64,000 nt of DNA from Octopus vulgaris (Eukaryota), in assembly GCA_951406725.2 (NCBI GenBank), contig OX597825.1:28582001-28646000 (forward strand), given 5' to 3'. Shown in pieces: positions 8,601 through 11,600 of this stretch. Numbering within the stretch: position 1 is the stretch's first letter; every line of letters begins with the position of its first letter. Position numbers: made by a program.

Positions 8601-11600
8601 GGCCCAAGTTAACCCAATCCCACGTTGGCCATATTTACCGAAATCTAAAGTTATAACTTACGTAAAATGTATTAAGAGATCGGAAGACGGTATTCAATTA
8701 GAAATACCTTATGAATCGAAAATACTTCCTCACAATAAAACTGCGGCACTGGTAGCATTTCCTGTCGGTAAGGCACATAACACTAGACAATACATATCTT
8801 TATCGGGGATGGTTAGTCTCAATACACAAAAAATGATGCCAAAAGAGGGTGAAGATTGGCCGCCAACCATTTTTATTCGGACAGAAAGTATAGTTCCACC
8901 ATATTATTGCGTTCATGCGTGTGGTGAAAAGTTAAAAGACCCCGGTAATATCAATGTTTTTGATGGAGGAATATGTCGTCCAGATGACAAATGCGAATGC
9001 TTTGAAGGATTCGAAGGGAAGCGTTGTCACACTGTTCAGTGCCATTGTTTACACGGCCTTTGCACTATTAAAGGTTCTTGCATATGTAATCCTGGTTATA
9101 CAGGCCCCTCTTGTGGTTCAGCAATTTGTGAAGATTGTAATTTTGGTGTATGTGTAAAACCAGGAGTATGTGAATGCACTACTATAGTACATTTCGGTGA
9201 AAATTGTGCTATTCATATTTCATCCATCATTGTTCCAATATTATTTGTAGCACTTATTCTCATTGGTATCTTTTATGTCATGGCAGGAATAACTAGCTCG
9301 AAGACGAAAAGTATAATCTATCAAGACTGGATGATTGATTGGGACAACGTTACTGTACCTGAAAAATTAGGTATGGTAGGACAATCTAAGGGAATAATTA
9401 ACAAAACGGTTGCAGCTTATAGATGGGACGATGAGAACTGGTATGTAAAAAAGATTAATAGTAAGACAATTCCTCCTGATGATAAAAAGATTATTTCAGA
9501 CATGGTCAAGTTAACTAAAACTAGACATTATAATCTGATTCGATACGGTGGATGTTGTTTGACTTATCCTAACGTCAGTTTGTTCATGGAAATTGCTGAC
9601 AAGGGGAGTATAGCGGATGTACTTGCCAATGAAACATTTGAGATCGGATGGGAATTTGGATTTTCATTTTTAAAAGATATATGTTGCGGAATGGAATATT
9701 TGCACGACAAATCTGAAATCAAAAGCCATGGACGTCTGAAATCTTCCAACTGCTTGGTTGATAAGCGCTGGACAGTACGTCTGTCAGGATTTGGTGCACC
9801 GTCTCTTCGTTATGGCAGCTACAGAATCCCAGAGTCTGAAGAAATGGCTGATTTAAAAGATCTTTTTTGGACCGCACCCGAACTACTGAGGGATAACACA
9901 AATCTCGATGGAGTAATGTCGGGCACACCGCAAGGAGATGTCTATTCATTTGCTATCGTTGCGTGTGAAATTGTGACGAAGGTAAAACCATACCATTACG
10001 AACTGAAACATTTAAGTGAAAAAAGCATTTTAGATCTCATTAAAGATTCACACTCACGGGCCAATATAGATATACGACGTGTATGGGAGAGTATTGGTGG
10101 AGGTAAAATGATTTTTACAAGACCAATTTTAAGTGAAGATTTATTACCAAACAGTAATCTATCTAAGAAGCTGTTTAAAATAATGCTCGAAGAATCTTGG
10201 AATGAGAAGGAATCTTCACGACCGACTTTTAATAAGCTTAGCATCATTCTAAATCAAATGTACCCCATAAAAGGAGAACTTATAGATAAATTAATCCACC
10301 TCTTGGAAACTTATTCAAATAATTTAGAAATGGTTGTAATAGAAAGAACCAGAGAACTAGAAGAAAAAAAAAGCTAATGCTGAGCAGCTATTGGGCCAGA
10401 TGTTGCCCCCGAAAGTAGCTTGTGAACTGAAGCAAGTTGGTGAAGTGATACCGGAATTATTCGAAAATGCCACGGTATTCTTCAGTGATATCGTGAATTT
10501 TAGCCGAATATGTAAACAAAGTAAACCAATGGAAATCGTTGATTTTTTAAATGAAGTTTATAAATTATTTGACTCAGTGGTGGACGGCTATGATGTTTAC
10601 AAAGTGGAAACCTTCAGCGATTCCTACATGGTAGTTAGTGGTATTCCAGAAAAGAATGGTGATCGCCATGCAGGAGAAATTGCAAAAATGGCTTTAGATC
10701 TGATGTCATATGTTACTCTACTCCATGTTCCCAACACGGAAAGTAATGTGCTACAATTACGAATTGGAATGCATTCCGGCCCGGTAGTAAGTGGCGTGGT
10801 GGGGACTCTATTGCCTAGATTTTGTCTATTCGGAGACACCGTCAACACAGCTTCCAGAATGCAGTCTAGTTCTTATGCCTTACACATTCAGGTGAGCGAG
10901 AATACTGCAGCAATTCTTGATTCTTTAGGCGGTTATAAATTAGAATGTAGAGGGGAAAGAGAAGTAAGAGGTCGCGGATTAATGACAACGTACTGGCTGT
11001 GGGGTAAGGACACATTTATGAAAGAATTACCTGATATATCCCTAGCAGTCCCTCTCTCACAACACAAATTCAAATAAAGCCTCCAGAGCATAAATTTATC
11101 TATAAAACACCATACATATTGTAGTATGTGTTCATGTATGTATGTATGTATGTATGTATGTATGTATGTATGTATGTATGTATGTATGTATGTATGTATG
11201 TATGTATGTATGTATGTATGTATGCATGTATATATGTATGTATGTATGTATGTATGCATGTATGTGTGTGTGTGTGCGTCTCTCCTAGTTTTTTAATCAT
11301 TAGAAATCTTCCACTGAGGACGGAGCCGGTTTCCAACAAAGATACAAGGCTCCATCTGTGGGATGTAGTTTACACAGACAAATTCACAATTGGAACTTGA
11401 GAAAATTCTTGCATATATTTACTGTTCCACCCACAGATTGTACCTGTAATGTACGAATTAGCCGGCCAATTTCTCTTTCTGAAAATCCCAGTTTATCCTG
11501 ATTCTCACTAAAGCATTTACTGACAAAACCTAATGTTCTAATTATTATTTGTATGAATATGAATTCATAGTCTGGATATAGAAGCTGCAGGTTTCGAAGT

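What the first reader, a model, noticed from the sequence alone, without database searches (positions are those of the whole stretch)
9020..9430. Sharp block of extreme paralog divergence over EGF2-3, TM and juxtamembrane
Seen: by-eye count gives about 53/124 identical aa versus 29130-29540, with no indels. The first ~355 aa differ at only ~8 positions and the adjacent kinase start is almost identical. Even the neutral TE flank (1-3790 vs 14854-18290) looks far more similar. Paralog 2 alone has three Cys in the TM. Inference: an old duplication homogenised by gene conversion except in this block, or a chimera from a larger array. The block may set dimer-partner specificity.
Basis: partly seen in the sequence, partly recalled or inferred. 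Interest (0 to 1): 0.7.

Follow-up and report, generated by a model that had tools for sequence, protein, structure and literature searches.

The report
Gene-conversion mosaic in octopus receptor cyclases
Two neighbouring octopus receptor guanylate cyclase genes are old duplicates that keep copying sequence onto each other, except in two stretches that have stayed distinct since before octopus species split; one of these is the flagged EGF/membrane-spanning block, a clear but familiar kind of pattern.

Summary
Gene A (6031-11077) and gene B (26141-31186) are intronless tandem receptor guanylate cyclase genes of an Octopus vulgaris-like genome.

- **Flagged stretch:** 65 of 138 residues are identical over 9020-9430, with no indel.
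- **Neighbouring regions:** the first 355 residues differ at 8 sites, and the start of the kinase-like domain matches at 117 of 120.
- **Silent sites:** the divergent block runs 8913-9447, so it begins about 110 nt earlier than flagged. dS is about 0.95 there, against 0.04-0.09 beside it.
- **Second island:** the finding does not mention one at 7504-8067, with dS from 0.43 to saturated.

O. bimaculoides carries both block types. Inside the islands, genes group by type across species. Elsewhere they group by species. Likelihood tests reject the opposite groupings.

This is an old duplication homogenised by interlocus gene conversion, with two islands that escape. A chimera, a burst of positive selection and an assembly artefact are all disfavoured.

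The "neutral TE flank" is a LINE-bearing flank. It appears to belong to a younger 14.5-kb tandem unit linking gene A to a third copy upstream, so it is the wrong yardstick for A versus B.

An Argonauta pair has its divergence trough in the same block. Whether selection maintains the island, for example through dimer specificity, remains untested.

The parts
6031..11077 (+). Gene A. Intronless receptor guanylate cyclase, A-type in both islands. It reads in two frames because of one extra A in the run at 10364-10372.
   Evidence: ORFs 6028-10377 and 10361-11077. A has 9 A where B has 8. tblastn shows only these two copies in the window.
26141..31186 (+). Gene B. Intact 1681-codon intronless receptor guanylate cyclase, B-type in both islands.
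   Evidence: ORF. Pfam hits: ANF_receptor 63 bits, EGF_TEN, PK_Tyr_Ser-Thr 96 bits, Guanylate_cyc 197 bits. 99% identical to an O. vulgaris protein model.
5663..11167 (+). Full extent of A/B homology. The partner is 25774-31274. It covers the CDS plus about 370 nt upstream and about 90 nt downstream. DNA outside it does not align.
   Evidence: blastn self-comparison, 91.3% over 5522 columns. Sliding identity falls to 35-50% outside these limits.
8913..9447 (+). Island 2 in gene A, the flagged block. It covers the end of EGF1, EGF2, EGF3, the transmembrane helix and the intracellular juxtamembrane stretch, codons 961-1139.
   Evidence: Silent-site segmentation: dS 0.95, dN 0.33, ratio 0.35. Difference positions. 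EGF_Teneurin 29.9 bits against a cut-off of 24.3.
29023..29557 (+). Island 2 in gene B, the B-type block. It has three Cys in the transmembrane helix, and EGF2-3 carries a net charge of +6.
   Evidence: EGF_Teneurin 30.3 bits.
7504..8067 (+). Island 1 in gene A, not part of the finding. It starts about 60 codons before the ANF_receptor match and covers that match's first half, codons 492-679. The partner in gene B is 27614-28177.
   Evidence: dS is 0.43 for codons 492-649 and saturated for codons 650-679. Protein identity is 115/180 for A vs B, against 151/180 and 161/180 for the orthologues.
9217..9294 (+). Transmembrane helix of gene A, aa 1063-1088. In gene B it lies at 29327-29404.
   Evidence: The most hydrophobic 21-mer within aa 900-1200 starts at aa 1063. 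Cys counts per copy are listed.
10364..10372 (+). Run of 9 A in gene A, against 8 in gene B at 30474-30481. It shifts the frame just before the cyclase domain. It is either a real recent lesion or a homopolymer error in the assembly.
   Evidence: The public models P0004 and P0005 break at the same place.
1..4175 (-). LINE remnant plus about 1.2-1.4 kb beyond its 3' end.
   Evidence: zf-RVT hit 6e-8. blastn to 14854-18672 at 90.6-94.4%. The homology starts at window base 1, so its left end cannot be seen.
14854..18672 (-). Copy 2 of the same flank. It lies downstream of gene A and upstream of gene B.
   Evidence: zf-RVT 7e-9 and a weak RVT_1 hit. The right ends of the two copies are 14,497 nt apart, so a head-to-tail unit 4176-18672 would hold gene A (inference).

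Best explanation
Genes A and B are old tandem duplicates of an intronless receptor guanylate cyclase with an EGF stalk. The duplication happened before O. vulgaris and O. bimaculoides separated.

Since then, repeated interlocus gene conversion has overwritten most of the coding sequence and short flanks of one copy with the other. Those parts now look only about 4-9% diverged at silent sites. Two islands have not been overwritten:
- the first half of the ligand-binding domain (7504-8067);
- the flagged stalk, transmembrane and juxtamembrane module (8913-9447).

These islands keep the original depth of divergence, and each type has its own orthologue in the other species. All of that is shown here.

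The following is inferred. The stalk-TM-juxtamembrane stretch works as one co-adapted unit that carries the signal, and probably dimer contacts, across the membrane. Partial conversion would create mismatched hybrids that selection removes. Once the stretch is about 35-40% diverged, it is also too different for conversion to start in it or pass through it, so the island sustains itself.

The confidence given is for the shown part. For the inferred role of selection I would say about 0.5.
For: **Silent sites.** dS is 0.036, 0.048 and 0.091 in the three homogenised segments. It is 0.95 in codons 961-1139, and 0.43 to saturated in codons 492-679. Six segments give the best BIC, and heterogeneity has p=2e-38. 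Codon shuffles reached the observed clustering in 0 of 5000 trials.

**Orthologues of each type, aa 991-1140.**
- A vs B within O. vulgaris: 75/150.
- A vs B within O. bimaculoides: 77/150.
- A-type between the two species: 113/150.
- B-type between the two species: 115/150.

**The reverse pattern elsewhere.**
- aa 1-355: A vs B 347/355, against 204/254 for the A orthologues.
- aa 356-510: A vs B 135/155, against 99/155 and 94/155 for the orthologues.

**Trees.**
- The block tree groups Ov_A with Ob_A and the third copy at 98/99, and Ov_B with Ob_B at 88/90.
- The aa 356-510 tree groups Ov_A with Ov_B at 100/97.
- AU tests reject an Ov_A+Ov_B clade in island 2 (p=2.5e-112) and in island 1 (p=6.9e-5).
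- AU tests reject type-wise clades in aa 356-510 (p=0.0011 and 2.4e-5).

**Site patterns in the four-gene set.** The islands hold 59 type-fixed sites and 1 species-wise site. The other segments hold 4 and 34. Fisher p=1e-20.

**Other pairs.** The O. bimaculoides pair and an Argonauta hians pair show their lowest identity at aa 991-1140, with recovery at aa 1141.

**Established theory.** A peak of divergence between converting duplicates marks a target of selection (passages of PMC3924837 read).
Against: - Only protein sequences of the other species were available, so dS could not be measured between orthologues. No codon-model test of selection could be run.
- The dN/dS of 0.35 in the island shows no excess of replacement changes.
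- Of 150 island sites, 61 also vary within a type and only 29 are type-fixed. A neutral old divergence plus a passive identity barrier fits as well as selection does.
- GC3 does not differ between converted and unconverted segments, so there is no trace of GC-biased conversion.
- The groups tested by AU were named after the identity table had been seen.
- The O. bimaculoides models are partial. Ob_B lacks most of aa 1-355 and everything after about aa 1270.
- In Argonauta the whole 3' half is also diverged (0.79-0.86 identity). Its pattern could therefore be a single 5' tract rather than an island.
Confidence: 0.85

Rival explanations
1. The conversion mosaic is the same, but the islands are passive. 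These stretches happened to diverge past the identity threshold that conversion needs, and they have been refractory ever since. No selection acts for different function.
For: - dN/dS is 0.35, with no sign of positive selection.
- 61 of 150 island sites also vary within a type.
- Orthologue identity in the block (0.75-0.77) is lower than in its neighbours (0.91-0.94), so the region evolves fast.
- The longest identical run inside the island is 35 nt, which is short for starting recombination. That last point rests on general knowledge.
Against: - aa 356-510 evolves faster still (orthologues 0.61-0.64), yet it is homogenised in O. vulgaris (0.87) and in Argonauta (0.99).
- The same module is the divergence trough in the separately clustered Argonauta pair.
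- In 11 other pairs of the family, the block is no more divergent than the rest of the ectodomain.
Confidence: 0.4
2. Chimera. A and B are young duplicates, and one of them received the block from another, more divergent member of a larger array.
For: The array is larger than two genes. A third A-type copy lies upstream of the window, and two further copies of about 49% identity are reported on a contig of the same size.
Against: - O. bimaculoides has the same A-type and B-type blocks, and each gene carries the matching type in island 1 as well.
- In the block tree both types fall in one clade at 99/99, apart from the divergent array members.
- Any such import would have to predate the species split, which makes it the same thing as an old duplication.
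Confidence: 0.05
3. The duplicates are young, and rapid positive selection is confined to the block.
For: Half of the residues differ in the block while the Cys/Gly skeleton is kept.
Against: - Silent sites are as diverged as replacement sites would demand. dS is 0.95 in the block against 0.04-0.09 outside, and dN/dS is 0.35.
- Both types have orthologues in another species.
Confidence: 0.02
4. Assembly or annotation artefact, with mis-joined haplotypes or collapsed copies.
For: - Gene A carries a homopolymer frameshift.
- The public gene models are fused across neighbouring copies.
Against: - Independent protein models from O. sinensis and O. bimaculoides hold the same block types.
- The window has no N.
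- There are no indels in the block.
Confidence: 0.02

Closest known systems
Human red/green opsin genes: a divergence peak at exon 5 under ongoing gene conversion (Teshima & Innan framework, as described in PMC3924837; passages read)
   Same: - Tandem duplicates kept nearly identical by interlocus conversion.
- A sharp local peak of divergence marks the part that must stay different.
   Different: - Here there are two islands of about 0.55 kb each, in intronless genes.
- One island covers a stalk, transmembrane and juxtamembrane module rather than a few tuning residues.
- No functional difference between the two types is known.
Clustered protocadherins (Noonan et al. 2004, seen only as reference 44 in the reference list of PMC3924837) and RHD/RHCE (recalled, not read)
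   Same: Receptor gene arrays in which conversion homogenises some domains while specificity-bearing parts escape.
   Different: As I recall, the escaping parts in protocadherins are the distal recognition domains and the membrane-proximal parts are homogenised. Here the membrane-proximal module is one of the parts that escapes.
Islands of divergence in converting paralogues of Tigriopus GOT1 (PMC3728101) and escape of a CEACAM1 paralogue (PMC7042247); both seen as abstract starts in the listing
   Same: Persisting islands are read as candidates for selection for new function.
   Different: They concern other gene families and organisms. I did not read their full text.
Membrane guanylate cyclases: natriuretic-peptide receptors and the sea-urchin speract receptor (names given by the sources)
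   Same: ANF_receptor ectodomain, one transmembrane helix, kinase-homology domain and cyclase domain.
   Different: - An extra N-terminal region of about 510 aa has no Pfam match.
- Three EGF-like repeats (18 invariant Cys) lie between the ligand-binding domain and the membrane.
- The genes are intronless.
- No paper on this subfamily was found.

Membership tests
Membrane (receptor) guanylate cyclase | Extracellular periplasmic-binding-protein-type ligand domain (ANF_receptor) | tested here: met
   PF01094, 63.2 bits against a cut-off of 25.4, aa 551-852 of gene B.
Membrane (receptor) guanylate cyclase | Single transmembrane helix between the ectodomain and the kinase-homology domain | tested here: met
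   The most hydrophobic 21-mer starts at aa 1063, with mean Kyte-Doolittle 2.4. No dedicated TM predictor was run.
Membrane (receptor) guanylate cyclase | Kinase-homology domain followed by a class III cyclase catalytic domain | tested here: met
   PK_Tyr_Ser-Thr 96.3 bits and Guanylate_cyc 197.5 bits. In gene A the cyclase domain lies after the frameshift.
Membrane (receptor) guanylate cyclase | Makes cGMP on ligand binding, as a dimer | not testable with these tools
   This needs an enzyme assay. The linker match (HNOBA, 17.8 bits) is below its cut-off of 23.4.
Concerted evolution by interlocus gene conversion with divergence islands | Paralogues within a species are more alike than orthologues between species in some segments | tested here: met
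   aa 1-355: 0.98 vs 0.80. aa 356-510: 0.87 vs 0.61-0.64. aa 691-960: 0.96 vs 0.92. aa 1141-1260: 0.97 vs 0.91-0.94.
Concerted evolution by interlocus gene conversion with divergence islands | Significant breakpoints in silent-site divergence along the gene | tested here: met
   Six-segment model has the best BIC, chi-square p=2e-38. Shuffles reached the observed clustering in 0 of 5000 trials.
Concerted evolution by interlocus gene conversion with divergence islands | Tree topology switches between segments | tested here: met
   Trees. AU tests give p from 0.0011 down to 2.5e-112. The groups were named after the identity table was seen.
Concerted evolution by interlocus gene conversion with divergence islands | Island maintained by selection (adaptive or type-specific constraint) | tested here: inconclusive
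   dN/dS is 0.35. There are 29 type-fixed and 61 within-type variable sites out of 150. No orthologue DNA or polymorphism data were available.
Concerted evolution by interlocus gene conversion with divergence islands | Polymorphisms shared between paralogues in converted tracts | not testable with these tools
   This needs population resequencing.
Teneurin-type EGF repeats that dimerise covalently | Match to teneurin-like EGF models | tested here: met
   EGF_Teneurin scores 30.3 bits (B) and 29.9 bits (A) against a cut-off of 24.3. The longer EGF_TEN model is below its cut-off, at 37 and 31 bits against 65.
Teneurin-type EGF repeats that dimerise covalently | An odd, unpaired Cys in a repeat that forms an intermolecular disulfide (feature recalled, not from a call) | tested here: not met
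   18 Cys, three sets of six, are invariant across 29 family members. Each of the eight copies counted has the same number over EGF2-3. No extra ectodomain Cys distinguishes the types.

The most novel reading that the evidence does not exclude
The stalk-transmembrane-juxtamembrane module (EGF2-3 + TM + intracellular juxtamembrane) is the identity-defining part of these receptors. It has been kept apart from conversion independently in Octopus and in Argonauta because paralogues must not form mixed or mis-coupled dimers.

In both lineages one copy has a near-neutral EGF2-3 and the other a basic one:
- Octopus A-type -3 to 0, against B-type +3 to +6;
- Argonauta 0, against +4.

If true, this would be a receptor guanylate cyclase array in which partner choice or signal coupling is encoded next to and within the membrane rather than only in the ligand-binding domain.
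Probability: 0.2. Interest if true: 0.65.

Novelty: new member of a known kind. Interest (0 to 1): 0.4.

Why it matters
It is a clean, well-delimited example of concerted evolution with divergence islands, in a cephalopod receptor family that appears undescribed.

- **Candidates for experiment:** the islands single out two short stretches, half of the ligand-binding domain and the membrane-spanning module, as where the paralogues differ in function. Domain-swap experiments can aim directly at them.
- **Dating:** whole-gene identity (about 91% nt) would date this duplication far too young.
- **Annotation:** the public gene models around a homopolymer frameshift are fused across neighbouring copies.

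Tried and rejected
- **Self-association fold.** I folded two copies of the gene B block, aa 961-1140. The tool returned no verdict, and its own alignment input was not used. This says nothing for or against dimer contacts.
- **GC3 comparison.** I compared GC3 between converted and unconverted segments to look for GC-biased conversion. GC3 was 0.27-0.35 everywhere, with no trend.
- **Other family pairs.** I asked whether the block is the usual divergence trough in the family. In the 11 pairs above 60% identity among 20 further proteins it is not. aa 511-690 is usually the lowest region.
- **Search for shorter proteins with the block.** This gave 1 hit, an older partial O. bimaculoides B-type model. 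I did not run a 'longer' search, and O. sinensis B-type stayed unsampled.
- **First permutation test.** The one returned NaN because of a one-codon last window. The test replaces it.
- **Rfam scan of the window.** 0 matches.
- **Pfam on ORFs downstream of gene B.** Nothing beyond low-complexity matches.
- **Pfam on the N-terminal 510 aa.** Nothing significant.
- **Literature.** Three searches for this octopus or EGF-bearing cyclase family returned 0, 0 and 11 unrelated papers. A fourth returned none on the topic among the 15 listed of 68.
- **Not available here.** No eukaryotic genome DNA other than the window could be fetched. All cross-species comparison is therefore at the protein level.
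Full report
**What is in the window.** The window has no N. It holds two long open reading frames on the + strand.
- Gene A is 6031-11077. It is read in two frames, 6028-10377 and 10361-11077.
- Gene B is 26141-31186, with 1681 codons.

Pfam finds ANF_receptor, teneurin-like EGF repeats, a kinase-like domain and a guanylate cyclase catalytic domain. The genes are therefore intronless membrane guanylate cyclases.

The best database hit is 99% identical and named 'speract receptor-like [Octopus vulgaris]'. tblastn finds no further copy in the window.

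Gene A has 9 A at 10364-10372 where gene B has 8, which shifts the frame before the cyclase domain. The public models break at the same place.
- One model joins A's tail to B.
- Another joins part of an upstream third copy, here called Z, to A.

**Checking the observation.** A and B align without gaps from A 5889 to A 10364.
- Codons overlapping 9020-9430 are identical at 65 of 138 residues.
- The first 355 residues differ at 8 sites.
- aa 1141-1260 match at 117 of 120.
- Gene B has three Cys in the transmembrane helix and gene A has none.
- Nucleotide differences are sparse up to 8877, dense from 8913 to 9447 (174 of 537), and sparse again after that.
- Codon shuffles reached the observed clustering in 0 of 5000 trials.

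The finding does not mention a second divergent stretch. It appears at about 7500-8070.

**Silent sites.** dS is far from uniform. A penalised segmentation of Nei-Gojobori synonymous differences prefers six segments.

| Codons | dS |
|---|---|
| 1-491 | 0.036 |
| 492-649 | 0.43 |
| 650-679 | saturated |
| 680-960 | 0.048 |
| 961-1139 (A nt 8911-9447) | 0.95 |
| 1140-1681 | 0.091 |

In codons 961-1139, dN is 0.33 and dN/dS is 0.35. Heterogeneity over 29 windows gives p=2e-38. A young duplicate with fast protein evolution in the block is therefore excluded, because the silent sites are old too.

**Relatives.** The protein search returned these models.
- O. sinensis: P0007, which matches the upstream copy Z.
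- O. bimaculoides: P0009, P0011 and P0124.
- Argonauta hians: P0008 and P0010, both listed on a contig of 37,809,188 bases.
- More distant array members: P0006, P0026 and P0032.

In O. bimaculoides, P0009 carries an A-type block and P0011 a B-type block.

Identities in aa 991-1140:

| Comparison | Identical residues |
|---|---|
| A vs B within O. vulgaris | 75/150 |
| A vs B within O. bimaculoides | 77/150 |
| A-type between species | 113/150 |
| B-type between species | 115/150 |

Island 1 (aa 511-690) behaves the same way, at 115/180 and 128/180 against 151/180 and 161/180.

Elsewhere the pattern is reversed.
- aa 1-355: 347/355 between paralogues, against 204/254 between A orthologues.
- aa 356-510: 135/155, against 99/155 and 94/155.

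Divergence scaled by orthologue divergence is my own arithmetic. It is about 2.5-3 in both islands and 0.1-0.5 elsewhere. This fits one old duplication for both islands and later overwriting of the rest.

**Trees and tests.**
- In the block tree, Ov_A joins Ob_A, Ov_Z and Os_Z (98/99). Ov_B joins Ob_B (88/90). The Argonauta pair forms its own clade (100/99). All three lie in one clade (99/99) apart from the divergent array members.
- In aa 356-510, Ov_A and Ov_B are sisters (100/97).
- In aa 1141-1260, Ob_A and Ob_B are sisters (87/95).
- AU tests reject an Ov_A+Ov_B clade in island 2 (p=2.5e-112) and in island 1 (p=6.9e-5).
- AU tests reject type-wise clades in aa 356-510 (p=0.0011 and 2.4e-5). 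I named these groups after seeing the identity table.

Site patterns among Ov_A, Ob_A, Ov_B and Ob_B tell the same story. The islands hold 59 type-fixed sites and 1 species-wise site. The other segments hold 4 and 34. Fisher p=1e-20.

**The TE flank.** Regions 1-4175 and 14854-18672 are 90.6-94.4% identical. They hold remnants of a LINE on the minus strand (zf-RVT, weak RVT_1).

The LINE's open frame ends near 1737 / 16318, and a polyadenylation-like signal lies near 1450 / 16040. The first 1.2-1.4 kb of the homology therefore lies beyond the element, so this looks like segmental homology and not only two insertions.

The homology starts at window base 1, so its left end cannot be seen. The right ends of the two copies are 14,497 nt apart. 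A head-to-tail unit 4176-18672 would therefore begin exactly where the first copy ends, and it would contain gene A.

Together with the annotated upstream copy Z, which is A-type and 93-100% identical to A in most segments, I infer that this flank belongs to a younger Z/A tandem duplication. It is not a neutral yardstick for A versus B.

True A/B homology is confined to 5663-11167 versus 25774-31274. It stops about 370 nt before the start codon and about 90 nt after the stop. That is what an old duplication would show if only the converting part stays alignable.

**What the block is.** It covers the end of EGF1, then EGF2, EGF3, the transmembrane helix (aa 1063-1088) and the intracellular juxtamembrane stretch, up to the start of the kinase-like domain.
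- All 18 EGF Cys, several Gly, and W1100, W1104 and W1132 are invariant or nearly invariant across 29 family members. The fold is kept while the surface changes.
- EGF2-3 net charge is -3 to 0 in the four A-type copies and +3 to +6 in the two B-type copies. It is 0 and +4 in the Argonauta pair.
- Transmembrane Cys number 0 in A-type copies, 3 in Ov_B and 2 in Ob_B.

**Is the island special?** In the Argonauta pair, the first 990 residues are 98-100% identical. Identity then falls to 80/143 in the block and recovers to 0.79-0.86. The switch lies within about ten codons of the dense edge in Octopus.

Since the Argonauta pair clusters apart, this looks like a second, independent case. Two cautions apply.
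- The tree has long branches.
- The Argonauta 3' half is diverged throughout.

In 11 other pairs of the family, the block is no more divergent than the rest of the ectodomain. A high local rate alone therefore does not explain the trough. The even faster region aa 356-510 is homogenised.

On the other side, dN/dS is 0.35, and 61 of 150 island sites also vary within a type. Selection is not demonstrated. GC3 shows no conversion bias.

**Mechanism.**
- *Shown:* an old duplication, recurrent conversion after the species split, and two escaping islands with stable edges in two species.
- *Inferred:* the stalk-TM-juxtamembrane stretch is a co-adapted signalling and dimer-contact module. Hybrids produced by partial conversion would be selected against, and its present 32-40% nucleotide divergence blocks conversion anyway.

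The theory that a divergence peak marks the target of selection under conversion, with the opsin example, is described in PMC3924837 (passages read).

**Novelty and limits.** I found no paper on this cyclase subfamily or its conversion pattern.

The phenomenon itself is well known, so I rate this a new member of a known kind.

All cross-species evidence is at the protein level, because no eukaryotic genome DNA other than the window could be fetched here.

Noticed in passing
window 10364-10372 (gene A) vs 30474-30481 (gene B): Gene A has a run of 9 A where gene B has 8. This puts the cyclase domain out of frame, yet that domain stays open for 238 codons. The public O. vulgaris models P0004 and P0005 are fused across neighbouring copies at this point. 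It is either a very recent lesion or a homopolymer error in the assembly.
   Followed up: partly
window 1-4175 and 14854-18672; unit 4176-18672: The LINE-bearing flank repeats with a period of about 14.5 kb. That fits a younger head-to-tail duplication pairing gene A with a third, A-type copy lying upstream of the window (first part of P0005, and P0007 in O. sinensis). The left end of the homology is cut off by the window start.
   Followed up: partly
window 7504-8067 and 27614-28177: A second conversion-escaping island covers roughly the first half of the ligand-binding (ANF_receptor) domain. Its right edge at 8067/8068 is very sharp and is followed by 168 identical bases. It holds 30 type-fixed sites out of 180.
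   Followed up: yes
window 26141-27670 (aa 1-510 of gene B; the same region in gene A): The N-terminal region of about 510 residues has no significant Pfam match. It is nevertheless alignable across the full-length family members returned from molluscs and an annelid. Hydra and a choanoflagellate also gave hits, but only partial ones. It is a conserved domain of unknown kind.
   Followed up: no
P0008 and P0010 (Argonauta hians proteins): These two paralogues are 98-100% identical over the first 990 residues and then drop to 56% in the same EGF2-3/TM/juxtamembrane block. One copy has a neutral EGF2-3 and the other a basic one, as in Octopus.
   Followed up: partly
window 356-510 aa region: 7096-7560 / 27206-27670: This is the fastest-evolving stretch between species (orthologues 61-64% identical). 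It is 87% identical between A and B. The third copy (O. sinensis P0007) is only 71-72% identical to either, so the third copy carries yet another variant here.
   Followed up: partly
window 11134-11273, 11946-12143, 41331-42078, 57346-57872: Long microsatellites: (ATGT)n starting about 57 nt after gene A's stop, just where A/B homology ends; a 750-nt (AT)n; and a 520-nt CA-rich array.
   Followed up: no
window 46990-47361, 50471-51026 and related copies near 34369, 54376, 56235: A repeat of about 184 nt occurs both in tandem and dispersed, in both orientations, at 80-94% identity. It is probably a SINE-like element. It gave no Rfam match.
   Followed up: no
window 23967-25464: A further degraded LINE fragment (weak RVT_1 and zf-RVT hits) lies on the + strand within the 7.1 kb of non-homologous DNA upstream of gene B.
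   Followed up: no
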